Shown here in pieces: positions 12,146 through 62,055 of a stretch of DNA of 64,000 bases. The stretch covers positions 17,174,001 through 17,238,000 of the forward strand of contig NC_090356.1 of assembly GCF_035084215.1 (NCBI RefSeq), read 5' to 3'. The DNA comes from Heptranchias perlo (taxonomy: Eukaryota). Every line of letters starts with the position of its first letter. The stretch's first letter is position 1. The notes under the pieces were generated by a model. The model saw only the letters and a list, made by a program, of their open reading frames with translations, was not told where the DNA came from and did no database searches. Made by a program: the position numbers and the translations under genes.

Positions 12146-12169
12146 CACCCATTATAAGAGTAACTGGCG

Positions 12170-40015: not shown

Positions 40016-40382
40016 AGGCGCATCAGCTGCATGTACTTGTGACTGTTAGGAAGGGATTATAAAGAGTGCTGATCCCATTCTGCGACTGGCAGACTTGCCA
40101 AAGCATTCTCTCATTCTCGCATTGCAGATAAAGTGCTATCTTTAATTTTGGAGGAAACATACCAGCGTTTGGGTGGGGCAGCAGGTTACAACATAGATTT
40201 CATCTCTGTGGCTCGTGATGAATTCTAGCCAAGAGATTTCAGCTGAAAGTTTCCTTTCCCTGACGCTGTTAACTTTCCCAATGGAAAACAATTTGGATGT
40301 TTTCAGCCCTATTCCCAGTGCACATGAAATTAAAGCCCAAAAAATCCCAGAAATTGAACGTTATTAATGTCCATTACTACAT

Positions 40383-40803
40383 GAGCTGGCAAGGACCCAA
40401 TACCACAGGAGCTGACAAGGATCCAATACCACAGGAGCTGACAAGGACCCAATACCACAGGAGCTGACAAGGATCCAATACCACGGGAGCTGACAAGGAC
40501 CCAATACCATGGGAGCTGACAAGGACCCAATACCATGGGAGCTGACAAGGACCCAATACCACAGGAGCTGACAAGGACCCAATACCACAGGAGCTGACAA
40601 GGATCCAATACCACGGGAGCTGACAAGGACCCAATACCACGGGAGCTGACAAGGACCCAATACCACGGGAGCTGGCAAGGACCCAATACCACGGGAGCTG
40701 ACAAGGACCCAATACCATGGGAGCTGACAAGGACCCAATACCATGGGAGCTGACAAGGACCCAATACCACAGGAGCTGACAAAGACCCAATGCCACAGGA
40801 GCA
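40383..40803. repeat. 26-bp minisatellite, about 16 copies
   Basis: Unit gagctgacaaggacccaataccac(a/g)g or ...ccatgg, period 26. Confidence 0.95.
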
Positions 40804-41089
40804 GGATTGGATGGCTGATGTAGAGAATCAAAACATCACAGACTTGTCAATCAGCCCATCCTTAACCTCTGAGATTGTGTTTAAGAAATATTGACGATGT
40901 GTGATATGCAACATCATACAACTGTACAAGATTCCATTCCACAGTGATTGTAGCCGGCAGGTTGATAATTATAAAATCCCCTCCCCCACAAAAATGTTTA
41001 AACAACTGAGTGAATGAAGTTCATTGTTTCTGGAATCTGGCCGGTGGAGGAGGATCATTAACCCACGCTGATATAAAATGATCAAAACA

Positions 41090-47157: not shown

Positions 47158-47466
47158 TGGGAAGAGAGCTAGGCACAAGAATGCCTAGATCTCTTCCCTG
47201 ATCAGCACTCTGTCTCATCTAGTCCCAGGTGCTCAAGCAGGGGGTGTCAGGCAGGAGCCTCTCCTCCAACACAAGGAGATAAAAAGAGACAAATTCATAT
47301 ATGAGGTAAGTCAGGTTTTTAAACTGAAAGCTGCACAATAGGTGTGAGGTGTTTACCGATTACCAAGATATGATGTCATGATGTGGAGATGCCGGTGATG
47401 GACTGGGGTTGACAATTGTAAACAATTTTACAACACCAAGTTATAGTCCAGCAATTTTATTTTAAA

Positions 47467-47505
47467 TTCACAAGCTTTCGGAGGCTTCCTCCTTCCTCAG
47501 GTAAA
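47467..47505 (-). ncRNA. Minimal hammerhead ribozyme motif in pLTR
   Basis: Reverse complement: tttac-CTGAGGA-a-ggagg-aag-cctcc-GAAA-gctt-gtgaa. Confidence 0.75.
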
Positions 47506-47734
47506 TGTTCAGGAGCTCCTCGAAGCCTACGCATTTATACATATAGAACAATACATGGTGTTTACAGAATGCCCCTGCAACTGCCCGTTGCCAAGGCAAT
47601 CACCGTGTTCAGACAGAGAGGTGTCTCCTGCAGAACCCCCGAATACACATTCAACAAAAAAACAAACAGGAAAAAAAACAGAGAGAGGCAGAAACATCCG
47701 GAAGGCAGAGAAAGCCAGCAAATGACCCATTATA

Positions 47735-48692
47735 TTAAAAACAGATAACATTTGTTCGCTGGTGGGGTAACGTGTAGCGTGACATGAACCCAAGATCCCG
47801 GTTGAGGCCGTCCTCATGGGTGCGGAACTTGGCTATCAATTTCTGCTCGACGATTTTGCGTTGTCGTGTGTCTCGAAGGCCGCCTTGGAGTACGCTTACC
47901 CGAAGGTCGGTGGATGAATGTCCATGACTGCTGAAGTGTTCCCCGACTGGGAGGGAACCCTCCTGTTTGGCGATTGTTGCGCGGTGTCCGTTCATCCGTT
48001 GTCGCAGCGTCTGCATGGTCTCGCCAATGTACCATGCTCTGGGGCATCCTTTCCTGCAACGTATGAGGTAGACAACGTTGGCCGAGTCACAGGAGTATGA
48101 ACCATGCACCTGGTGGGTGGTGTCCTCTCGTGTGATGGTGGTATCTGTGTCGATGATCTGGCATGTCTTGCAGAGGTTACCGTGGCAGGGTTGTGTGGTG
48201 TCGTGGACGCTGTTCTCTTGAAAGCTAGGTAATTTGCTGCGAACGATGGTCTGTTTGAGGTTGGGTGGCTGTTTAAAGGCGAGTAGTGGAGGTGTGGGGA
48301 TGGCCATAGCGAGGTGTTTGTCCTCATTGATGACATGTTGAAGGCTGCGGAGAACATGGCGTAGTTTCTCCGCTCCGGGGAAGTACTGGACGACAAAGGG
48401 TACTCTGTTGGTTGCGTCCCGTGTTAGTCTCCTGAGGAGGTCTATGCGATTTTTTGCTGTGGCCCGTCGGAACTGTCGATCGATGAGTCGAGCGTCATAT
48501 CCAGTTCTTACTAGGGCGTCTTTCTGCGTCTGTAGGTGTCCATCGCGTTCCTCCTCGTCTGAGCAGACCCTGTGTATTCGCAGGGCCTGTCCATAGGGGA
48601 TGGCCTCTTTGACGTGGTTAGGGTGGAAGCTGGAAAAGTGGAGCATCGTGAGGTTGTCCGTGGGCTTGCGGTAGAGTGAGGTGCTGAGGTGC
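47735..48692 (-). CDS. Inverted duplicate of the PLE thumb, Cys linker and GIY-YIG region (no RT core)
   Basis: ORF 47735..48727(-) matches the C-terminal ~318 aa of the + ORF except for L>Q (TLKDA to TQKDA). Confidence 0.85.
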
Positions 48693-51025
48693 TTGAGAAA
48701 CTCGGCATCACCACCAGCAACGACCAAGCTTCCCCTGGTACCACGGTTGCAACCACAGGGAAGTCTATTGTCAATTTATCCGACCACACCCTTCAACCAG
48801 ACGAAATCGAAGTTCTCAGCCGAGGGCTCAATTTCTGCCCCACTACCAAAATGGACCCCACTAGTCTCGCGGCGGACACAGAGGAATTCATCAGGAGAAT
48901 GAGGCTCCGGGAATTCTACCACAAACCCCAAGATTTCAGCAGCGAACCCAATGAGACAATCGACGATCCGGAACAGCAGACAGAGGGATCCGCGGTACAG
49001 CAACCGAAGAGGAAAGAGTCAAACTGGACTCCTCCGGAGGGTCGCTGCCCTCAGCTGGACATGTATGCTCAAGCTGTCAGGAAATGCGTCAATGCCAGAT
49101 TCATCAGCCGCACTCAGAAGACAGTCCAGAATGTCACCCGAGCACAACGCAACGCCATCAACGCTCTCAAGACCAACCGCAACATCGTCATCAAACCAGC
49201 GGACAAAGGAGGAGCCATAGTCATACAGAACAGAACAGACTATTGCAAAGAAGCATACCGACAACTGGACAACCAGGAACACTACAGACGGTTACCCGCA
49301 GATCCGACCAAAGAACACACCCACCAGCTCAACAAACTGATCAAGACCTTCGATCCAGACCTTCAAAGCATCCTACGCACTCTCATCCCACGTAATCCCC
49401 GCGTGGGAGACTTCTACTGCCTCCCAAAGATACACAAAGCCAACACACCTGGACGTCCCATCGTATCAGGCAACAGAACCCTGTGTGAGAACCTCTCTGG
49501 ATACATCGAGGGCATCCTGAAACCCATCGTACAGGGAACCCCCAGCTTCTGTCGCGACACTACAGACTTCCTACAAAAACTCAGTACCCACGGACCAGTT
49601 GAACCAGGAACACTTCTCACCACGATGGACGTCTCGGCACTATACACCAGTATCCCCCACGATGACGGCATCGCTGCGACAGCATCAATACTCAACACCA
49701 ACAACAGCCAATCTCCGGAAGCCATCCTACAACTCATCCGCTTCATCCTGGATCACAATGTCTTCACCTTCGATAACCAGTTCTTTACCCAAACACACGG
49801 AACAGCCATGGGGACCAAATTCGCACCCCAATATGCCAACATTTTCATGCACAGGTTCGAGCAGGACTTCTTCACTGCACAAGACCTCCAACCAACACTA
49901 TACACCAGATACATCGACGACATTTTCTTTCTATGGACCCACGGCAAGGAATCACTAAAGAGACTACACGATAACATCAACAAGTTCCGTCCCACCATCA
50001 AGCTCACCATGGACTACTCCTCAGAATCAGTTTCTTTCTTGGACACACGAATCTCCATCAAAGACGGGCACCTCAGCACCTCACTCTACCGCAAGCCCAC
50101 GGACAACCTCACGATGCTCCACTTTTCCAGCTTCCACCCTAACCACGTCAAAGAGGCCATCCCCTATGGACAGGCCCTGCGAATACACAGGGTCTGCTCA
50201 GACGAGGAGGAACGCGATGGACACCTACAGACGCTGAAAGACGCCCTAGTAAGAACGGGATATGACGCTCGACTCATCGATCGACAGTTCCGACGGGCCA
50301 CAGCAAAAAATCGCATAGACCTCCTCAGGAGACTAACACGGGACGCAACCAACAGAGTACCCTTTGTCGTCCAGTACTTCCCCGGAGCGGAGAAACTACG
50401 CCATGTTCTCCGCAGCCTTCAACATGTCATCAATGAGGACAAACACCTCGCTATGGCCATCCCCACACCTCCACTACTCGCCTTTAAACAGCCACCCAAC
50501 CTCAAACAGACCATCGTTCGCAGCAAATTACCTAGCTTTCAAGAGAACAGCGTCCACGACACCACACAACCCTGCCACGGTAACCTCTGCAAGACATGCC
50601 AGATCATCGACACAGATACCACCATCACACGAGAGGACACCACCCACCAGGTGCATGGTTCATACTCCTGTGACTCGGCCAACGTTGTCTACCTCATACG
50701 TTGCAGGAAAGGATGCCCCAGAGCATGGTACATTGGCGAGACCATGCAGACGCTGCGACAACGGATGAACGGACACCGCGCAACAATCGCCAAACAGGAG
50801 GGTTCCCTCCCAGTCGGGGAACACTTCAGCAGTCATGGACATTCATCCACCGACCTTCGGGTAAGCGTACTCCAAGGCGGCCTTCGAGACACACGACAAC
50901 GCAAAATCGTCGAGCAGAAATTGATAGCCAAGTTCCGCACCCATGAGGACGGCCTCAACCGGGATCTTGGGTTCATGTCACGCTACACGTTACCACACCA
51001 GCGAACAAATGTTATCTGTTTTTAA
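48689..51025 (+). CDS. PLE reverse transcriptase plus Cys linker plus GIY-YIG endonuclease (778 codons; the native start is probably lost)
   Basis: KPADKGGAIV, FYCLPKIHK, MDVSALYTSIP, GTAMGTKFAP, RYIDDIFF, LYRKPTD, PCHGNLCKTC, NVVYLIRC...YIGET...RMNGH; no stops. Confidence 0.95.
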   Translation: MLEKLGITTSNDQASPGTTVATTGKSIVNLSDHTLQPDEIEVLSRGLNFCPTTKMDPTSLAADTEEFIRRMRLREFYHKPQDFSSEPNETIDDPEQQTEGSAVQQPKRKESNWTPPEGRCPQLDMYAQAVRKCVNARFISRTQKTVQNVTRAQRNAINALKTNRNIVIKPADKGGAIVIQNRTDYCKEAYRQLDNQEHYRRLPADPTKEHTHQLNKLIKTFDPDLQSILRTLIPRNPRVGDFYCLPKIHKANTPGRPIVSGNRTLCENLSGYIEGILKPIVQGTPSFCRDTTDFLQKLSTHGPVEPGTLLTTMDVSALYTSIPHDDGIAATASILNTNNSQSPEAILQLIRFILDHNVFTFDNQFFTQTHGTAMGTKFAPQYANIFMHRFEQDFFTAQDLQPTLYTRYIDDIFFLWTHGKESLKRLHDNINKFRPTIKLTMDYSSESVSFLDTRISIKDGHLSTSLYRKPTDNLTMLHFSSFHPNHVKEAIPYGQALRIHRVCSDEEERDGHLQTLKDALVRTGYDARLIDRQFRRATAKNRIDLLRRLTRDATNRVPFVVQYFPGAEKLRHVLRSLQHVINEDKHLAMAIPTPPLLAFKQPPNLKQTIVRSKLPSFQENSVHDTTQPCHGNLCKTCQIIDTDTTITREDTTHQVHGSYSCDSANVVYLIRCRKGCPRAWYIGETMQTLRQRMNGHRATIAKQEGSLPVGEHFSSHGHSSTDLRVSVLQGGLRDTRQRKIVEQKLIAKFRTHEDGLNRDLGFMSRYTLPHQRTNVICF

Positions 51026-51254
51026 TATAATGGGTCATATGCTGGCTTTCTCTGCCTTCCGGATGTTTCTGCCTCTCTCTGTTTTTTTTCCTGTTTGTTT
51101 TTTTGTTGAATGTGTATTCGGGGGTTCTGCAGGTGACACCTCTCTGTCTGAACACGGTGATTGCCTTGGCAACGGGCAGTTGCAGGGGCATTCTGTAAAC
51201 ACCATGTATTGTTCTATATGTATAAATGCGTAGGCTTCGAGGAGCTCCTGAACA

Positions 51255-51293
51255 TTTACCTGAGGAAGGAGGAAGCCTCCGAAAGCTTGTGAA
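51255..51293 (+). ncRNA. Minimal hammerhead ribozyme motif in pLTR
   Basis: tttac-CTGAGGA-a-ggagg(aag)cctcc-GAAA-gctt-gtgaa: core CUGANGA/GAAA, 5-bp stem II, stem I tttac/gtgaa. Confidence 0.78.
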
Positions 51294-51347
51294 TTTAAAA
51301 TAAAATTGCTGGACTATAACTTGGTGTTGTAAAATTGTTTACAAGAT

Positions 51348-51572
51348 ATGATGTGGAGATGCCGGTGATGGACTGGGGTTGACAATTGTAAACAATTTTA
51401 CAACACCAAGTTATAGTCCAGCAATTTTATTTTAAATTCACAAGCTTTCGGAGGCTTCCTCCTTCGTCAGGTTCTTTCACATCGTTCACCTGACGAAGGA
51501 GGAAGCCTCCGAAAGCTTGTGAATTTAAAATAAAATTGCTGGACTATAACTTGGTGTTGTAAAATTGTTTAC
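51348..51572. mobile_element. ~225-bp non-autonomous palindromic pLTR element
   Basis: Tail, then 85-bp arms 51388-51472 and 51488-51572 around a 15-bp spacer. The outer TSD gattaccaagata is at 47358-47370 and 51573-51585. Confidence 0.92.
51485..51523 (+). ncRNA. Minimal hammerhead ribozyme motif
   Basis: ttcac-CTGACGA-a-ggagg(aag)cctcc-GAAA-gctt-gtgaa; stem I ttcac/gtgaa is perfect. Confidence 0.8.
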
Positions 51573-51638
51573 GATTACCAAGATAGGCTAATGAATTTCT
51601 TATTGTCTACAGTCATTAGGGAAACAACTTCAAAGCCT

Positions 51639-51865
51639 TAAAACAAAAGCAAAATACTGCATTTGCTGCAAATCTGAAATAAAAGCAGAAAATGCCGGAA
51701 TACTCAGCCGATCAGGCAGCATCTGTGGAGAGAGGAACAGAGTTAACATTTCAGGTCGATGAGTTCTGACAAAAGGTCATCGACCTGAAACGTTAACTCT
51801 GTTTCTCTCTCCACAGTTGCTGCCTGACTGGCTGAGTATTTCCAGCATTTTCTGTTTTTAATTTC
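51639..51865. mobile_element. Second-family palindromic element (probably PLE-derived) with a hammerhead-like motif
   Basis: Arms tgaaataaaagcagaaaatg...caggtcgatga and tcatcgacctg...ttttctgtttttaatttca; left-only tail; direct repeat ttcaaagcct at 51629-51638 and 51863-51872. Confidence 0.85.
51761..51799 (+). ncRNA. Hammerhead-like motif, core mutated (CTGACAA)
   Basis: gagtt-CTGACAA-a-aggtc(atc)gacct-GAAA-cgtt-aactc; same spacing as 51485. Confidence 0.65.
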
Positions 51866-52126
51866 AAAGCCTAGCTTATTAGCATTTTAACTACCTTTCA
51901 TCTCAGGGCCTTTTTTAAAAACTTGTGTGAATACACTTGGCTTTAAAACACATATCATAAATGCATCCCTTTTTTTAATACTTTTTGTGGGAAAATTGAC
52001 AAAACACTCCCACACGTAACAAGCACACTGTCTCACTTCTTTTCCACACACAATATAACCCTTAGATCTCTCTCAGGATCAGCATGCCGTCTCGCTGTTC
52101 CATTTAACATACAATATAAACCTACA

Positions 52127-52781
52127 GGTCTAGAAATTGGTTTGGGCCGGCAGGCCAGCACATACTGGGCCCAGGGAACTATTCCTGCGTCGGAATGGGT
52201 AGACCCAAGGTACACCTGATATTAGGCCTTGGACCTCATTTAAACGAGACCAGCAAGCTGCAGGTGCATGCTGGGAGCCGCAGACAGCTTGCCAGCGAAT
52301 CGGCATCGGAAATGATCGGGAGGGAGAGGGCGATCGCAAGGGGGGAAGGCAGCAATCAGGAGTCTTCAGCACTGTAGTGGAACCGGGAGGAGCACTCGGG
52401 TAAGTAATTTTTTAACAAACTTAATTTTTTGATGCCAGCATCCAGCAGTCCCTTTAAGGACCGCTGGTTAGCCCGCATGTAGACCATGTTTTCCTGAATG
52501 CAGCCGGCTGCATTCAAGACAGAACAATTTTTCAAAGGGGGCCTCAAACAGGTTTAGGCCCCTCAATTGCATGCACAAAGCATCTAACGCCTGTTTCAGG
52601 CATGGGCCCTTGATGCCTCTTTTTCTGCCTTTACCAATATGGAGGACAGTCATTGAATGTGTGTGCGCCAATGTGGGTTTCCATCATAGAATGTGTGCAC
52701 GCACATTGCCCGCCATATTGGATGCTTTGGCGCTTATTTTACGTCTGTAAAACGGGTGTGGCGCCAACCAATTTCTAGGTT
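52127..52781. mobile_element. MITE-like element (Harbinger-type ends)
   Basis: ctagaaattggtt (~52130) and aaccaatttctag (~52766-52778) are inverted ends of a GC-richer insert. Confidence 0.6.
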
Positions 52782-53289
52782 ACCATCTGTCCCCAGACCA
52801 GCAAACTGTCTCACTGTTCCATTTAACACACACTATAATGCCTGGATCTCTCTCTTGATCAGCAGACTGTTCCTTAACTCATGCTCACTCTTTTTCTCCC
52901 ATAGTTTTTATTTTACACTTATCACTGTTATATTACACATAGCACTAATTTTACACGCCATATTGAACTGCATCTGTCTATATTGGCCAATGTAACTAAA
53001 TGATCCGAACGTTTCTGAATCTGCATAAACCTGCGTTAAAATAAATGTCAGCATTAAGTAGATTAGTTTCTAATAAGAACAACCACTTGATTGAGGCCAC
53101 ACACTACACCGATCTTATAGAGGAACTGAGTGTTATAAAGGTTGATGGGAATTGGATTCTGGATGTTGAAGGTGTAACTAAGGGCGTTAGGGCCTCAGGA
53201 AACCCTTGTTTTCATTTAATATCAACACTAAGTGATGAGATGGTTAATCTGGGTTTGTTCAAGTTTTTTCCCAAGTCAGGCACCTTGCC

Positions 53290-53557
53290 AGCATTGTAGT
53301 GACGCGGTGTTTCGAAGTTCAACAATGTGCAGAGAGATTTGATCCCAGAGCTGCCTCTGGTTCAACTTGAACTTTTCCAATCCTCGATCCGCAAAGGAAT
53401 TCGAGACACTGGCGAGGGGTGCGGATTGGAGCTGGTACAGATTGAAATGTGGCTGGGACTCGCTCGGTAACTCGGCGATGTTTCGAACTTCGTATTTTGG
53501 GGAATAATATGAGCAAAGACACAGCGGAGTTTCAGAGATTCGGGAGCTGCGGCCGCC
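53290..53557 (+). promoter_or_regulatory. Probable VWA1 promoter / 5' UTR
   Basis: CpG-rich; TGACG at 53300; reverse CCAAT (attgg) at 53425-53429; directly precedes the gccgccATG. Confidence 0.6.
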
Positions 53558-53636
53558 ATGCTCGCACTCAGAGCCATCTGTCTGCAGTCCCTTTTGCGAG
53601 TGGCTTGGATCTTCCAGAGCAGTGTCCTGAGCACAG
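53558..53636 (+). CDS. VWA1: VWA1 exon 1, signal peptide (MLALRAICLQSLLRVAWIFQSSVLST)
   Basis: GCCGCCATG context; donor cag|gtgagg. The 79 nt give phase 1, matching the phase-1 acceptor at 60006. The peptide is hydrophobic. Confidence 0.8.
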
Positions 53637-54267
53637 GTGAGGCAGCTGACAGGTGGAAGCAGGACCTCGGGAGACGGGGTGGGGGGTCAATCTCCTTCCA
53701 TATGTTTGGTTGAGGAACCAGTCATATTTCAGGGGCTAATGACAAATATCACCAGTGAGAAGATGGATGATTTCCGATCTTGTTAAGATTCCAGGGAGTG
53801 AGAGGAGAATGTGCCAGGGGCAAGAATGCTGTTAAATTTTAAAAACATCAAAGGTTAGATGTGTTCAGCAGGTTTAAAAAATTGTTTTTAAAAAGTCTGT
53901 TGGGGAGACAGGTGCAAATTGTTCCCCTCAGTACAGATTGGGGCTCCTGAAGTTGGAACTGAGCCCCTGGCGTTAATGCTGGTGTCAGGTCCCTGTTTGG
54001 GGCTGGGCTTCACGGTGTAGAATTGCCACTTGAAACTGGAATCTGAAAATTTTACTTCCCACCCAAAGACAGAATCCTAGTCTACCCCAGGAGAGGCGGA
54101 TTTTGGAATTTCCTTCACTGTCTTTTAATTGTGGGAATTGCAGAGTCTAAGATTACAGTGGATTAGATTAAGATTAGAGTGCACCCATCCCAGCTAACAG
54201 GTTGCACACTCGGCTCTCTACGTTTCTGGAATATTCTGTTAGGATATTTGGATTATTCAGTCCGGCC

Positions 54268-54390
54268 TTCATAGAATCACACAGCACAGAAGGAAGCCAT
54301 TCAGCCCATCGTGCTTGTGTCAGCTCTCTAAAAGAGCTACCAATAAGTGCCACTCCCCTGCTCTTTTCTCCCATAGCCCTGCATTGTTTT
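54268..54390 (-). mobile_element. CR1-type 3' tail
   Basis: catagaatcacacagcacagaaggaagccattcagccc. Confidence 0.6.
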
Positions 54391-56239
54391 ATTTTTTAAG
54401 CCCCAAACTCGGTGGCGGAATGAGGCAGAAATGGAAATCAAAAGGCTGAAAGCTCGAATGAGAATTTGGACTTTAAAATCTGAGTCGGAACTTTTTGCAT
54501 TCATTGGGTTGGAGCTCAGAAACGGAAAATCCCGAAGGAGTTTTTACAAATCAAAATTAAAGCCGCTTCTCTGTCCCAGTTGGAAGTAGTGAGATGGGCA
54601 CATGGAATCTGCATGGCGTTCTCTGATTCTCTCTCCCACTCCCACCTACTCCTCTTTCTTATGCTGTGCCTGTCCCTCTAGTTCCGATGGGGGTAAAGTG
54701 TCAGTTCTGAGGAGCAGGTGGCGTCCACGAGGCATTTAATGCAGCAGACGGTCTGCCAGCTTTTGGCCTGGTCGGTGTCAAACCCACCACCTGAGAAATA
54801 CTCTTGTTTAACGACAGTGCCTCTAAACTGGCCGAGCCTGTAATGGACGTCAGTGGTTCGGTGGTCACAGAACTAAATCCTGTAAACTGGGTCTGTGGGT
54901 TGCTTTTGTGTCTGATTATTTGAACCCTATTGCTGTTCAGATTGTTTCTTGTCCAATGTCATTGAGTTGACCCCCCCCCCCCCACTTCTTGGCTAGGTTA
55001 GCAAATTCTGCCTGGAAGAGAGGAGGATTTGCTCCTTGCTGACTATTTAACCCACCCGTTGGTTTTGCTAGGAGCTGTTCAGCAGAAGGCATTTCCCTGC
55101 CCAGATTGGGCATGTTAGAGTGTTACAGAAGTAAAAACATCTGGAATTTCCTGGCAATTAGAAGTTGCTGCTGCGGAGTGTGTGGTCCTTAGTACAGAGT
55201 AACTGTGCCGGATGGGTGGTTATTAGTACACGGTAACTCTGCAGCTCACCTCGGGCTGAGACGTGAGTTACAATGATAACCTGGTTAAAATGCTAAGTGA
55301 CCCTTAGTTGGTGGCAATAGAAATTAAAATACTCGGGTTCCTGTAACTATATTCCTGGCAACGAGCTCAGACCTCATACGAGATTTTCACGAAAGGTTAG
55401 GAGTGACTTGGCTCCCCACAAGTTACTAACCGTGTAGCTCATTGTCTAGGTGTTCCGATCCTGTAACACAAAGCCCATACATTATTGGAATGTACACACA
55501 CTCCACTGACCTAGTGATCGCAGCCCAATGAGCAGAACAACAAAGGCTCATTAATTCAGCAGAAACTTACGTTTACAGTTAGAACTAAGATAATATCACA
55601 AGTTGGTTATTGGTAACCCGCAGTGACCTTGCAAGTGGTCCCTTCCGCAACAGTAGCCAACAATTTCCACTCTGATTGTGGACTGGCCCAAAGATAAATT
55701 TCAGAATTCAAATTTATTGCAGATAACAGTAACTATTTATCAAACAATGAGCAGCGCTGGGATTTCCTGTCCATCTGTACAGATCTCACACCTGGACATG
55801 GGCTACATACAAGTTGCTGTTCCGGAATGGTTCTGTGGAAGGGGAAAAGCTACAAAATGAATTACTCTGGTTAGACATCTCAAAAATGAAATAAATTAAA
55901 GCTTACATAAGCAGCATGCTACAGAACTCCAGACCAGTATAAGAAGGGGAGCGATTTGCTCTACAGAGAGATAGAAAGAGTATGAGAGAACAGGAAAGTT
56001 ATTTTAATAGGATACGTCAATCAACCAAATATAAATTGGGAAAATCTATGGTTTAGAGTCATAGTTGATAAATGCAATGTATGATTGCTTCATGCCCTAG
56101 TGTATTAAGGAAATCAAAAGATGCAGTGCTCATCTAGACCTGGAATTGGTTAATAACCCGGATAATATACAGGAGATTGAAGTTGTTGTACCCGTGGTAG
56201 AATAGTGTGCTCCCCAAACAGAAATAATCTAAGCAAAAT

Positions 56240-57900
56240 CAATGACTTCTACATAAATAAGATGAAAGTTTTAGACAGGCTAAAAGAGCTCAAAACAATA
56301 TGTCCCCAGAGATGGATGGTATTTATCCCAGAGTGCTGAGAGAGACCAGAAAGAAGATTTCTGTGGCACTGACAACCTTTATAAGTGAGTCACTGCGCAC
56401 TAGTGGGATACCAGAAGATTGGAAACATGATAACGTGGTGCCCATATTTAAAAACAGACAGAGGCAACTAGAGACCCATTTCATACTATACAAAATAATG
56501 GAGTTGATTATCAGGAGTACATTTGAGGATTATCTGTACAATAATTTAGAAAACAACAATCATTATAGATTCAGAAGGGAAAGATCCTGCCTGCCTGACA
56601 AACTGCTCCAATGAAGTGACGACTCAAGTGGACTGTGGATCGTCCTGTGTTGACTTCCAAAAGGTATTTGATAAAATTCCACAAAAAGGCTGTTAGTTAA
56701 ACTCAGTGTGTTAGGGATTTAGGGTAAACTCTGAGAATGGATAAATAATTGGCCGTAGAGTGGAAAACAATGAGTGCTTGTGAAAGGAGTTATGTTAGGG
56801 TGGGAGAAGGGCTGAGTGAGGTTCCCCAGGGATTGGTGTTGAGACCATCACGGTTTCTAATTTACATAAATGATCTGGATTTAGAAACTGAATGCAGTGT
56901 GGTCAAATCTGCAGATAATACCAAACTAAGGGAGGCAGTGGATTTAGAGGAGACAGCTCAGAAATTAGAGAAAAAGTTGGATAAAATACATTAGTGGGTA
57001 AAAAAGTATCAGATGAAATTTAGTGGAAATAGATTAAATTTAGTACAGACAAATGTAAAGTACAAAGAAAAAATAAGTAATAGATTTACTCCATGAATGG
57101 TATTGCAATAGCTAACGATGAAACTGAAAGAGACCTAGGATTCTTAGTAGACTCGACACTCAACAGGGGTCATTTTAACTTTGGGCAAAGGTGTAAAATG
57201 GCTGATATCGAATTGACCACTCGTTATACACCACATTTGATTTTCTTTTCCATTTAAGTCAATAGAAGGGAAAATTGGGAAAGGTGTAGAATGGGCAACC
57301 AATTCCATATCGCCTGTTTTACACAATCGCCCAAAGTTAAAATTACCCCCAACATGTTCAACCAATGCACAACAGCAATCAATAAAGCCAATGGAATGTT
57401 GAACTACATAACATCGACATTAGAATACAAGTTGACCAAACTGCATAGTGCTCTGGTCAGATTGCACCTTGAGGACTGCATCTGATTTTGGTTGCTGAGG
57501 CATAAGGGAGACATTCACATGCTAGAGGCAGTGCAGAAAAGAGCCACAAGATCCCTAGTGTCAAAGGTCTGAGTTTGGAGGAGAGACTAGAGAAATTTAG
57601 GCTTTTTAGTATGGAAGGGCAGTGTCTGAGAGATGGTTTTAGAGATATACAAGCTAGTTAAGAGAACAGAAAAGGTAAATCTGGAATATTACTTTATGTT
57701 AAATACTGACAATAGGACAAGGGGACATACGTTCAAACTTGTAAAATGTGATTTTAGGACTGAAATCAGGAAATTCTTCTTCATACAAAGATTGAACAAC
57801 ATATGGAACGGACTTCCAGGAAGAGTAGTGGAAAAAAACTCTGGAATCTTTTGAAACAATTGGATGCTGTAATGAGGGAACTTTAGCATCTTTCTGGATG
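56240..57900 (+). mobile_element. Old CR1 LINE fragment in VWA1 intron 1
   Basis: SPEMDGIYPRVLRE, VPQGLVL..FLIYINDLD, LVRLHLEDC and RTRGHTFKL. Confidence 0.85.
57165..57350. mobile_element. Palindromic MITE inserted into the CR1
   Basis: ggggtcattttaactttgggc / gcccaaagttaaaattacccc; flanking duplication aac (or caaca). The TIR resembles that of 24424-27036. Confidence 0.82.
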
Positions 57901-58094
57901 CACGAACTACCTTCCTCATTTCTTTTCCATACTGGTATGAATACCACAGAACGTGAAGTAACCAGGTTATAAAGTTAGATAAAAATATACAGAAAATATC
58001 TTTTAGAAACTGTGGTTTAAATGATAAAATTGGAGCAGTCCACACATTAGAAATGTCACACGTGTGCAGTAGGGGGCATTGAGCTGAGGCATAT

Positions 58095-58295
58095 TATTGG
58101 GACAGGTGCAGAAAAAGCTTCACTGTGTATTTGATGTGGGAGTGTTTAATGGGGCCGCGTAAAGAAAGCTTTACTCTCAATCTGACTTGTGTTATACCTT
58201 AGCTTGGAGCATTTGATGGGCAGGGTAGTGGGATCTTTACTCTGCATTCAACTCGTGCTGTACCTGCTCTGAGAGTGCTTGATGCTGACACTGAA
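58095..58295 (+). repeat. Degenerate ~60-65-bp tandem units
   Basis: ggagtgtttaatggg...agctttactct, ggagcatttgatggg...ctttactct and gagtgcttgatgctgacactg. Confidence 0.55.
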
Positions 58296-59251
58296 TACCC
58301 AAAATGGAAAGTACTCCTTTCCCAGCATTAACATCCAACAATTTGATAAAAGCAAAAATCGCCCCCAAAATTCTTGCAGAACGCTTTCCAAAACCTAGTG
58401 ACACTGTGTATTCAACCACATCATTGAGTGCATGATAATGTTTAGTTTTTATTAATAAAGAATTAATAACAGCTACAGTCTGTGATGTGGTGATTGTCTC
58501 ACTGACTGGGTGCGTTAAGTTACTAATTGTATAAATTGTCTTGTAAGCCCCTTTAATTTGGCTAAAAGTTGCATAAGCAATTATTTTGTTCAAGTACCAA
58601 ATTTTAAAGTGACAGTAACCCAGTGATTGCAGGGAAACCAGTGATGCATGACAAAGAATGTGGTACTAAGCAGATCGCATGTATTGGGAGTGCTGGTCTT
58701 TGAACCACTGTGTGCACAGTAATACTGTTTTAAGTTGAATGAATCATGTATTATTGTACATGAAGTACAATGGAATCACTTGCTGTGCATTTACACAACT
58801 GTGTTTTGCTGCTTGGGGCCAAACATAAATCCTTTGTGTGGCTGTTAATCAGCCTCAGTGCCAGCTTGTGTTGCCCTCAGTCCTGGTTTGTGTCCCCACT
58901 TGGAATGCCTGTCTACAGTAGTCATTCATTGTGCTATATTTCATTTTATTTCATTATGTTAGAGCTGCAAGTTCTGTTTTTTTAAGGCCTACTCTGCAAA
59001 CTATAACATAATAACATTATGATGGCGCAGGTGTGTAGTGCCTATCAGTGAGAAATACACTGCTAGTTACACAATGTCAGGCTATAATTAAGGGGAATGA
59101 ACAAAACTGCAGCCAGCATGTGCTACCATGAATTATGGTTTGGGATGGTGGTGGTGGAAATCCTAGCAAGAAGAGTGACAAGAAAGCATACCAGCCATAA
59201 TCTCAGCTTCCATCAAAGTACCAAATTCATTTATGTCGTATTGTCCTCTTC

Positions 59252-59343
59252 TTCACCTGACGAAGGAGCAAAGCTCCGAAAGCTTGTGATTTCAAATAAA
59301 GCTGTTGGACTATAACCTGGTGTTGTGCGACTCCTTACATTTG
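59252..59343 (+). mobile_element. Solo pLTR end of a related PLE variant with a hammerhead motif (59252-59290)
   Basis: ttcac-CTGACGA-a-ggagc(aaa)gctcc-GAAA-gctt-gtga, followed by tggactataacctggtgttgt as in the 51.5-kb family. Confidence 0.82.
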
Positions 59344-60005: not shown

Positions 60006-60569
60006 GGGCTGAACACTCTATACAGGATGCAGAAGGAGACCTACTCTTCTTGATGGACGGTTCTGGAAGTATTTTACCCTATGAGTTCACCAGATTGAAA
60101 GAGTTTGTTGTTGATTTACTGACGCCATTCACCATAGGTGCCAGTGATGTGCAGGTTGGCTTTCTGCACATTAGTGATGACCCAGTGGTGGAGTTTCCGT
60201 TTAATAAGTACATGTCGGACACTGCTGTACAGTGGGCTCTTCTGAACATGAAGCAGAAACTGGGAGACACCAATACTGGCAAGGCACTGTCTCATGCCAA
60301 AGACACCATGTTCACACAGAAAGCAGGTGCCAGACCAGATGTCCCAAAGGTCTTGGTGTGGCTGACAGATGGGGTATCATCAGACGACATATCACAGCCC
60401 ATCCAGCTCCTCAAGGAACTCGGGGTTACAATTTTCGTTGTTAGCACAGGGAGGGGCAATTACATTGAACTGAAGGCTGCAGCTAGTGAACCATCAGAAA
60501 GCCACCTGTATTACGTAGATCCCGATGATATGTATGTTATTACTGAGGAGCTGCGTAACGAAATTCTAG
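60006..60569 (+). CDS. VWA1: VWA1 exon 2, von Willebrand factor A domain
   Basis: Acceptor ttctccccttcccccag|, donor |gtatgt; 564 nt, phase 1-1. GDLLFLMDGSGS (MIDAS DxSxS), GDTNTGKAL, GARPDVPKVLVWLTDG and VSTGRGNY.EL.AAAS.P.E.HL closely parallel vertebrate VWA1/WARP. Confidence 0.93.
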
Positions 60570-60683
60570 GTATGTTCATGTTACAGTCATCACTTCCATA
60601 CAATTGTTTTCAGCTGGGGTTAAGGTACTTTCTCCCAATCCCTTTATCTTCACCATCTGTCATTGGGGGGAGCAGAACTACCT

Positions 60684-61497
60684 CTCAGCTCTGTGACTGG
60701 GGAGAGGGCGAGCAGTTCCCAGGGCACTGTGTGTGCAATTCTGTGACTGGGGAGGAGGTGAGCAGCTCCCAGGGCAATGTTTGTGCAGCTCTGTGACTGG
60801 GGAGGGGGCAAGCAGCTCCCAGGGCACTGTTTGTGCAGCTGTGTGACTGGGGAGGAGGCAAGCAGCTCCCAGGGCACAGTGCGCGCAGCTATGTGACTGG
60901 GGAGAGGGCGAGCAGCTTCCAGCGCTCTGTGTGTGCAGCTCTGTGACTGGGGAGAGGGCGAGCAGCTCCCAGGGCACTGTGTGTGCAGCTCTGTGACTGG
61001 GGAGAGGGCCAGCAGCTTCCAGCGCTCTGTGTGTGCAGCTCTGTGACTGGGGAGGAGGCGAGCAGCTCCCAGGGCACTGTGTGTGCAGCTGTGTGACTGG
61101 GGAGAGGGCGAGCAGCTCCCAGCGCTCTGTGTGTGCAGCTCTGTGACTGGGGAGGAGGCGAGCAGCTCCCAGGGCACTGTGTGTGCAGCTCTGTGACTGG
61201 GGAGAGGGCGAGCAGCTCCCAGCGCTCTGTGTGTGAAGCTCTGTGACTGGGGAGAGGGCGAGCAGCTTCCAGCACTCTGTGTGTGCAGCTCTATGACTGG
61301 GGAGGGGGTGAGCAGTTCCCAAGGCACTGTGTGTGCAGCTCTGTGACTGGGGAGGGGGTGAGCAGTTCCCATGGCACTGTGTGTGCAGCTCTGTGACTGG
61401 GGAGAGAGCGAGCAGCTCCCAGCGCACTGTGTGTGCAGCTCTTTGACAGAGGTGGGAGAGGGCGAGCAGTTCCCAGGACTTTGTGTGTGCAGCTCTG
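60684..61497. repeat. 50-bp minisatellite, about 16 copies, in VWA1 intron 2
   Basis: gtgactgg recurs exactly every 50 nt from 60693 to 61400; unit ctgtgactggggagagggcgagcagctcccagggcactgtgtgtgcagct. Confidence 0.95.
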
Positions 61498-62055
61498 CAA
61501 CAAAGGGCCAAGGAGACCAGATCTCAGGCGTCCAATGCCGGTTGTTGGTTGCTGGATGGAGATGACCTGTACGTTCTGTACAGTTCTCTATCAATGACGA
61601 TTCTTGTATTTAAGGTTATGTTATAGTTTAAAATATCTGATTCAAAGTATGAAGCAAGACTTCTTGGACTCTTCGGTAGGTCATTGAAGTACTTTTGGGC
61701 AGTTTTTGGACAGGCCTTTACCTGGAATAGCTGCTCAGACTGGGCACGGGGATTGTAAATGCTCCAGTAAATGTAGAATCTGCTGGTGGACAAACTATTG
61801 TAAGGTGGGTTAATGAGGAGCTTTTACTTGTTTAAAACTTTAATTGAAGTAGATTATTTAGTGCTGAACCATTCACATCTTTAGGTTAGTACATCATTAA
61901 TCATGTGATTGTACCTCTTAGTAAAAGGACACAAGAGCCAATCTTTTTAGGACGACATATCCCTTTAAAATATCCAAAGAATCAAAAGTATTTAAAATAA
62001 CTATATAGGGAAATATTTCTGCACAAATTAAAAACATGTTTGCAGCAATATAACA

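What the first reader, a model, noticed from the sequence alone, without database searches (positions are those of the whole stretch)
51255..59290. Three covarying minimal hammerhead motifs with identical spacing and U at the cleavage position
Seen, variant 1: ttcac-CTGACGA-a-GGAGG(aag)CCTCC-GAA-AGCT-t-gtgaa at 51485 (CTGAGGA form at 51255 and 47467). Variant 2: tcac-CTGACGA-a-GGAGC(aaa)GCTCC-GAA-AGCT-t-gtga at 59253. Variant 3: gagtt-CTGACAA-a-AGGTC(atc)GACCT-GAA-ACGT-t-aactc at 51761. Stems I, II and III change sequence but keep pairing, and stem III is a loopless 4-nt palindrome. Established: PLE pLTRs carry minimal type I hammerheads thought to cleave as dimers. Inference: these share an extra A after CUGANGA and a CUU/GUU cleavage triplet, which is a weak or atypical configuration that may need dimerisation or protein help.
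Basis: partly seen in the sequence, partly recalled or inferred. Interest (0 to 1): 0.75.

Follow-up and report, generated by a model that had tools for sequence, protein, structure and literature searches.

The report
Penelope retrotransposon minimal hammerhead copies
The three motifs are real copies of the small "minimal hammerhead" RNA already described at the ends of Penelope-like jumping genes, with the same extra A and U at the cut site; this genome holds about 94,000 of them, and most are likely uncut, inert leftovers of copying.

Summary
The motifs are in the sequence (5 hits; 0 strict hits in 50 simulated windows). They are minimal type I hammerheads in the pseudo-LTRs of two Penelope-like element (PLE) families. 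Variant 1 flanks a very young Neptune-type element (RT + GIY-YIG motif); variant 2 is a 98-nt solo end of a sister subfamily; variant 3 belongs to a second family and carries a G8-to-A change. The "atypical" traits are published: Cervera and de la Pena 2014 list the extra nucleotide, the palindromic loopless stem III and low, dimer-dependent cleavage; 24 of 56 motifs in their Fig. S3 have U17, and the turtle row has the same AGCU/U core. Protein help is shown for an anole PLE. Covariation holds but rests mostly on one two-family split. The genome has 86,042 + 8,307 exact cores. One added detail: 5' ends of 110 sampled copies never fall on the cut site; 61 fall at or just upstream of the core, below a TATA box, so templates were likely uncut. 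The scan noted this class before in other genomes.

The parts
47377..48692 (-). Inverted, 5'-truncated copy of the PLE 3' end, with the 'tail' (47377-47415) that ends at the ORF start codon
   Evidence: 1277-nt arms 100% complementary; match to tandem unit L025; tail runs into ATG in L009, L025
47466..47506 (-). Hammerhead variant 1 (C3 47500, U17 47472) in the inverted pLTR
48691..51344 (+). Main body of a 5'-truncated Neptune-type PLE, 98% identical to tandem units elsewhere in the genome
   Evidence: flanked with the inverted copy by a 13-nt direct repeat at 47364 and 51342
48680..51025 (+). Open frame of 781 aa: RT domain, CX2-5CxxC linker, C-terminal GIY-YIG-type motif; lacks about 125 N-terminal residues of the 902-aa full ORF
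   Evidence: (RVT_1, E 3e-10; no Pfam GIY-YIG hit)
51221..51226 (+). TATAAA, 39 nt upstream of C3; predicted pLTR promoter element
   Evidence: TATA-like word 36-47 nt before C3 in 8 of 14 intact contexts, TTAAAA in 2 more, none in 4; function inferred
51254..51294 (+). Hammerhead variant 1 (C3 51260, extra A 51267, stem II 51268-51280, AGCU 51284-51287, U17 51288; predicted cut 51288/51289)
51348..51571 (.). Earlier small insertion: two short pLTR ends back to back, interrupted on its left by the large element
   Evidence: 14-nt direct repeat at 47357 and 51572; matches to L003/L094; order of events inferred
51436..51472 (-). Sixth hammerhead copy (C3 51470), 5' strand of stem I truncated
51484..51524 (+). 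Hammerhead variant 1, CUGACGA form (C3 51490, U17 51518)
51639..51866 (.). Inverted pair of short ends of a second PLE family, 10-nt direct repeat at 51629 and 51863
   Evidence: relatives sit beside decayed PLE ORFs 27-47% identical to the window ORF in L045, L046, L054, L063
51762..51798 (+). Hammerhead variant 3 (C3 51766, U17 51794), G8 changed to A; likely inactive
59246..59343 (+). Solo 98-nt pLTR end holding hammerhead variant 2 (59253-59289; C3 59257, U17 59285)
   Evidence: 97% to L006 over 100 nt; no target duplication found

Best explanation
These are minimal type I hammerhead motifs in the pseudo-LTRs of two Penelope-like retrotransposon families, predicted to cut RNA only weakly and only as a dimer or with the element's protein, and the copies in this window are likely inert by-products of copying from uncut RNA. 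Shown: the motifs, their place between the ORF stop and the tail/ATG of a young RT + GIY-YIG element, tandem units of 3,083 nt with one motif each, about 94,000 exact cores, and 5' ends of copies that avoid the cut site. Inferred from published PLE work: in a tandem transcript two motifs join their AGCU (or ACGU) palindromes to form stem III, or the bound ORF protein folds the motif, and cleavage falls 3' of U17. Inferred here: transcription starts about 30 nt below the TATA word, some 10-17 nt before the core; reverse transcription starts inside the RNA at the tail and often runs only to near that 5' end, leaving 100-150-nt copies with a whole hammerhead.
For: Every trait matches the published min-HHR consensus, and the Chrysemys row has the same extra A, AGCU and U17. 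Location in pLTRs of an intact young PLE. 86,042 AGCUU cores against 28 for the reversed pattern and 8,307 ACGUU cores against 145. Stems pair in 91% of 312 cells against 27-45% for slid controls. No excess of copies departing at the cut site: 168 at position 17 against 132 at 16.1, among at least 22,471 copies; 0 of 110 sampled 5' ends at the site, 61 of 110 at 31-62 nt above the anchor, 5 of 110 in the next 240 nt, 23 longer. The anole PLE hammerhead cuts only with protein, is not needed for insertion, and RT starts internally at the tail.
Against: No cleavage was measured and no RNA ends could be read. The AGCU duplex is worth only -2.5 kcal/mol and the computed two-molecule folds were strand-swapped, not joined through stem III. 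Covariation on the two measures least inflated by kinship did not beat shuffles (127/500 and 147/500), and the 27 rows were hand-picked from 81 distinct motifs. The start-site reading is only partly met: local modes sit at TATA +30-32 in both spacer classes, but distances from C3 did not differ between them (p = 0.68), and 19 of 45 and 6 of 26 ends lie upstream of TATA +28. The 110 copies are not independent (inverted pairs, duplications) and the pattern that listed them misses long copies of the window's own subfamily.
Confidence: 0.85

Rival explanations
1. The motif is a vestigial or non-catalytic structure: kept as a protein-binding or promoter-proximal element of the PLE, and not cleaved in vivo.
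For: U17 is fixed in both main families (non-U 849 and 1,364, with reversed controls 309 and 739); no genomic footprint of cutting; published in vitro activity is low and no anole RNA-seq reads ended at the site.
Against: All core positions are kept across families whose proteins are about 33% identical, including a third family with C17; GUU is listed among cleavable NUH sites; the anole motif does cut with protein and shows C3/G8 rescue.
Confidence: 0.25
2. The pile-up of 5' ends near the core is not a transcript start but a stall or template switch of reverse transcriptase after the folded hammerhead, or simply a preferred cDNA length.
For: Ends spread from 5 to about 40 nt upstream of C3 and do not shift significantly with the TATA-core spacing; many are inversion joints.
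Against: The break rate falls about 45-fold upstream of the zone (0.037 to 0.0008 per nt), and the sharpest mode is at TATA +31 (9 of 87), where a start site is expected (recalled).
Confidence: 0.4
3. The U17 plus extra A configuration is a distinct, lineage-specific hammerhead subclass with its own activation mode.
For: Near-total fixation of U17 and very high copy number in this genome; no cartilaginous fish among the 56 published rows.
Against: The same configuration is in the published set from cnidarians to a turtle (24 of 56 rows with U17); fixation follows from expansion of two families.
Confidence: 0.04
4. One of these copies has been adopted by the host, for example to regulate the VWA-domain gene whose exon lies 0.7 kb downstream of variant 2 on the same strand.
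For: Variant 2 is intact and sense to a VWA-domain exon at about 60006-60569.
Against: It is 97% identical to a dispersed copy, one of tens of thousands, and has no same-family partner within 7 kb.
Confidence: 0.03

Closest known systems
[quoted passage not shown]
   Same: Core, unpaired nucleotide between 9 and 10.1, short helix I, palindromic 15.2-16.2 with no loop 3, H17 often U, mostly solo copies, pairs on opposite strands 100-700 bp apart; the Chrysemys row has the same AGCU/U17 core.
   Different: Copy number: about 94,000 exact cores here against about 4,000 (coelacanth) and 9,000 (Xenopus) there, by different search rules; no cartilaginous fish in their table; variant 3 family often has A-U at 10.1-11.1 (also in two of their rows).
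PAc, Poseidon PLE of the green anole, Frangieh et al. 2024 (PMC11167929; read: parts 1-2 of 4)
   Same: pLTR hammerhead upstream of an AC-rich tail; insertion from unprocessed RNA; no ends at the cut site.
   Different: There the ORF starts in stem II and the tail lies 111-118 nt inside the ORF; here the ATG is 121 nt after C3, at the end of the tail, and the element is Neptune-type.
Neptune clade PLEs (Craig et al. 2021, PMC8557442; passages only)
   Same: C-terminal GIY-YIG-type domain, CX2-5CxxC linker, tandem and inverted 5'-truncated insertions, 30-40-bp tail on one end.
   Different: Clear 10-14-nt direct repeats at three of four insertions here; no RT tree was built.
Non-LTR retrozymes (Li et al., bioRxiv 10.64898/2026.07.22.740005; read: parts 1-2 of 5 and passages)
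   Same: Short non-coding, PLE-derived units with a type I hammerhead; one cartilaginous fish was among their genomes.
   Different: Those are head-to-tail tandem repeats; the short copies here are solo or inverted ends of autonomous elements.

Membership tests
PLE minimal hammerhead (min-HHR) | Core CUGANGA ... GAAA ... UH (variants 1 and 2; variant 3 family) | tested here: met
PLE minimal hammerhead (min-HHR) | G8 in the window's own variant 3 copy | tested here: not met
   CUGACAA at 51766; filed as a decayed copy of a member family, not as an intact member
PLE minimal hammerhead (min-HHR) | Unpaired nucleotide between 9 and 10.1 | tested here: met
   A in 26 of 27 aligned rows, G in 1; listed trait
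PLE minimal hammerhead (min-HHR) | G10.1-C11.1 pair (consensus trait) | tested here: inconclusive
   G-C in 18 of 24 distinct rows (variants 1, 2), A-U in 4 and G-U in 2 (variant 3 family); A-U also in the published Latimeria(2) and D. willistoni rows
PLE minimal hammerhead (min-HHR) | Helix I of about 4-5 bp, helix II paired | tested here: met
   stem I 4-6 bp, stem II 5 bp in the four + strand copies folded; 87% and 93% of cells paired
PLE minimal hammerhead (min-HHR) | Palindromic 15.2-16.2, no loop 3 | tested here: met
   GC in 18, CG in 6 of 24 distinct rows
PLE minimal hammerhead (min-HHR) | Sits in the pLTR of a PLE ORF | tested here: met
   variant 1: window element and L025 tandem; variant 2: same tail in L006; variant 3: 4 of 20 loci fetched lie beside decayed PLE ORF pieces
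PLE minimal hammerhead (min-HHR) | Low self-cleavage, as dimer or with protein | not testable with these tools
   needs in vitro assay; folding gave no stem-III dimer
Neptune clade PLE | RT followed by CX2-5CxxC linker and C-terminal GIY-YIG | tested here: met
   RVT_1; CHGNLCKTC and VY...YIGET; Pfam GIY-YIG hit only in the 33% identical L026 ORF; clade trait
Neptune clade PLE | Placement in the RT phylogeny | not tested
   no named reference PLE proteins were held
Non-LTR retrozyme | Head-to-tail tandem of short hammerhead-bearing units | tested here: not met
   short copies in the window are solo or inverted; the tandems seen are 3,083-nt coding units

The most novel reading that the evidence does not exclude
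The hammerhead is the first fold of the PLE messenger: a TATA promoter starts the RNA 10-17 nt before the core, internal priming at the tail about 120 nt downstream copies just this leader, and so the roughly 100,000 solo hammerheads are 'strong-stop'-like cDNAs of uncut RNA. Their ends would map the start site and show, in tens of thousands of germ-line events, that ribozyme cutting is not part of insertion but a way to remove the cap or end the transcript.
Probability: 0.4. Interest if true: 0.5.

Novelty: new member of a known kind. Interest (0 to 1): 0.22.

Why it matters
The class and its traits are known, so the finding as posed is ordinary. What remains useful is the resource: a very young PLE with many identical full ORFs, tandem arrays and about 94,000 hammerhead copies lets one ask from genome data alone whether PLE ribozymes cut the RNA that is copied. 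The sample here says the copied RNA was likely uncut, in line with the one in vitro study, and offers an origin for the many solo minimal hammerheads in animal genomes.

Tried and rejected
Rfam scan: no hammerhead family matched. A/T-type stem III palindromes with G10.1-C11.1: 64 matches against 117 for the control, no family. Sequencing runs: no RNA holder listed; four contig sets each were laid on a pLTR-ORF junction of both families: contigs cannot show ends or level, the runs are RNA only by guess, and no GT-AG joint was among the joints shown (4 rows; 15 of 27), so the idea of a pLTR intron (GT at the cut site in family 1; acceptor-like pyrimidine tract after the motif in family 3) is neither supported nor excluded. 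Two-molecule folding did not give the stem-III dimer. The test of whether 5' ends follow the TATA word or the core was inconclusive; its TATA-based p value (0.015) is partly forced by my cut-off. One search used an anchor shifted by one base (108 copies, and an empty point/break count); it was redone. A genome-wide count of copies that reach the TATA word was not obtained; only the count reaching the core for one subfamily is in hand (7,708). Lunse et al. 2017 on dimer cleavage is not held; I know it only from its citation; it and the figures of PMC4209133 that I could not see may hold closer matches. No measured rate for a CUU site was found; that U17 is slower than C17 or A17 is recalled. 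PMC2632901 passages gave nothing of use. No R-scape or covariance model was run: with two or three independent lineages it would have little power. Dimer formation at this very locus is unlikely by inference: the two sense copies 230 nt apart enclose an antisense copy that would pair with either.
Full report
Observation. A descriptor asking for the core, stems I and II and a 2-bp stem III found exactly these five: + strand at 51255, 51485, 51761 and 59252, minus strand from 47505. Fifty order-3 Markov simulations gave 0.16 loose and 0 strict hits per window. A sixth copy with a truncated stem I lies on the minus strand, C3 at 51470. Rfam has no model that catches them.

Surroundings. Variant 1 belongs to a Penelope-like element. 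A 781-aa open frame at 48680-51025 carries an RT domain, a CX2-5CxxC linker and a C-terminal VY...YIGET motif; Pfam did not call GIY-YIG in it, but did in a 33% identical relative. That linker marks Neptune and Nematis elements (passages). An inverted 1,277-nt copy of the 3' end precedes it, the usual PLE layout. Direct repeats of 13 and 14 nt show the large element inserted into the left end of an earlier 230-nt back-to-back pair of pLTR ends (order inferred). The family is very young: all 150 scored genome matches to a 220-aa piece were listed at 100% identity, many in 918-codon frames. L025 holds head-to-tail units of 3,083 nt, each with TATAAA, the hammerhead 40 nt later and a 902-aa ORF starting 121 nt after C3. 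Variant 2 is a 98-nt solo end of a sister subfamily with the same tail. Variant 3 lies in an inverted pair of ends of a second family; 4 of the 20 loci fetched for it lie beside decayed PLE ORF pieces. Its window copy has lost G8. The host is a 3.25-Gb genome, probably a cartilaginous fish; that label is recalled from the repeat content and comes from no call.

Genome counts. Exact cores: AGCUU type 86,042 (reversed control 28), ACGUU type 8,307 (control 145). With another base at 17: 849 (control 309) and 1,364 (control 739); the latter includes a real C17 family. A/T palindromes gave nothing above control. U17 is therefore a trait of two expanded families.

Covariation. I aligned 27 motifs, chosen for looking intact, from 81 distinct ones in the stored loci. 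91% of 312 cells pair, against 27-45% for slid partners; 10 of 13 pairs show a double change. But most double changes are the one split between 18 AGCU and 6 ACGU rows, and the two measures that count pairs or pair types did not exceed shuffles (127/500, 147/500). Within the AGCU family the loop-closing pair of stem II is G-C, C-G or A-U and is unpaired in 6 of 24 rows. So the fold is supported, at the strength of two or three lineages.

Comparison with print. Cervera and de la Pena 2014 (main text parts 1-2 of 4; supplement parts 1-2 of 3) define this motif: nucleotide between 9 and 10.1, palindromic 15.2-16.2, short helix I, mostly solo copies, pairs on opposite strands, no monomer cleavage and low dimer cleavage for a schistosome example. 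In their Fig. S3 I count 24 of 56 rows with U17, 25 with C, 6 with A, 1 with G; the turtle row has the extra A, AGCU and U17 of variants 1 and 2, and several rows have the ACGU/U17 of variant 3 (the GAAA column is printed apart in the extracted text). An extra A there causes only a moderate rate drop in a viroid hammerhead (passage); GUU is listed as a cleavable site (passage). Frangieh et al. 2024 (parts 1-2 of 4) show that an anole PLE hammerhead cuts only with the PLE protein, is dispensable for insertion, and that RT starts internally at the tail. A search for Penelope + hammerhead + shark listed 4 papers, none on this by title; a 2026 preprint includes one cartilaginous fish for tandem retrozymes. 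Earlier notes of this scan reached the same class in other genomes; none existed for this genome.

Footprint of cutting. If cut RNA were copied, insertions would begin right after U17. Genome-wide, 168 copies depart from the family at position 17 and 132 at 16.1, among at least 22,471; 26 of 30 position-17 cases were breaks, 4 point changes. That is at most 0.75%, like the 0.7% per base seen around it. In 110 copies from loci L095-L150, 5' ends fell as follows, in nt above an anchor 2 nt below the cut: 0-1, 1; cut site, 0; 3-30 (inside the core), 20; 31-62 (from C3 upward), 61; 63-150, 2; 151-300, 3; longer, 23. Counting one copy per locus kept the pattern (31 of 54), as did a subfamily not disfavoured by the listing pattern (18 of 37 in the zone, 1 in 63-150). 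A TATA-like word stands 36-47 nt before C3 in 8 of 14 intact contexts, including a distant family, and the commonest end is TATA +31 (9 of 87). A test between subfamilies with 39-40 and 46-47 nt spacers was inconclusive, and about a third of ends lie between the TATA word and +28. No held paper had all of Penelope-like, truncated, transcription start, hammerhead and TATA; Drosophila Penelope has a TATA-less internal promoter (abstract).

Mechanism. Shown: sequence, layout, counts, end positions. From published work: weak cleavage 3' of position 17 through an intermolecular stem III or with the ORF protein. Inferred: the pLTR promoter starts RNA just before the hammerhead; internal priming at the tail yields short cDNAs with an uncut motif; these solo and inverted copies, including those in this window, are passengers. 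Any real cutting would act on tandem transcripts, ending them or removing the cap. At this locus the inverted neighbours would likely pair with each other and block folding.

Verdict. New member of a known kind, interest 0.22, with one testable side result on where copies begin.

Noticed in passing
L026 (G000:C1:990500-1000499) and L027 (G000:C1:198223500-198233499): A third PLE family with a C17 (GUC) minimal hammerhead stands in head-to-tail units of about 8-9 kb near both ends of contig C1 (8 and 14 motif hits listed). The L026 unit has an upstream 754-codon frame with a weak GDSL/SGNH-like hit (E 0.011) and an RT + GIY-YIG ORF, and a 460-nt (CCCTAA)n tract; the L027 stretch has no such tract. 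Possibly a subtelomeric, two-ORF Neptune-type element; one search found no paper on it by title.
   Followed up: partly
window 51205-51226 and L003, L007, L025, L030, L032, L036, L094: An ATTGTT word stands shortly upstream of the TATA-like word in the AGCU subfamilies; it resembles a Sox/HMG site (recalled, untested).
   Followed up: no
window 51795-51820; L063:1930-2000 minus strand: In the variant 3 family the cut site is followed by a branch-like TTAAC, a pyrimidine tract and CAG, with a second acceptor-like tract about 55 nt on. PLE pLTRs can hold introns; no splice joint was seen in the contigs laid.
   Followed up: partly
window 60006-60569 +: Exon-like frame with a von Willebrand A domain (E 1e-40), bounded by AG and GT; a 50-nt tandem repeat follows at about 60586-61535.
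   Followed up: no
L042 (G000:C1:67669882-67671909): A recurring motif with both hammerhead core halves and C17 but no paired stem II (14 of 100 listed rows; failed the stem II filter); perhaps a degenerate or differently folded family.
   Followed up: no
window 40293-40864, 12163-13989, 14350-14586: Tandem arrays of 26 nt, about 26 nt (degenerate) and 48 nt.
   Followed up: no
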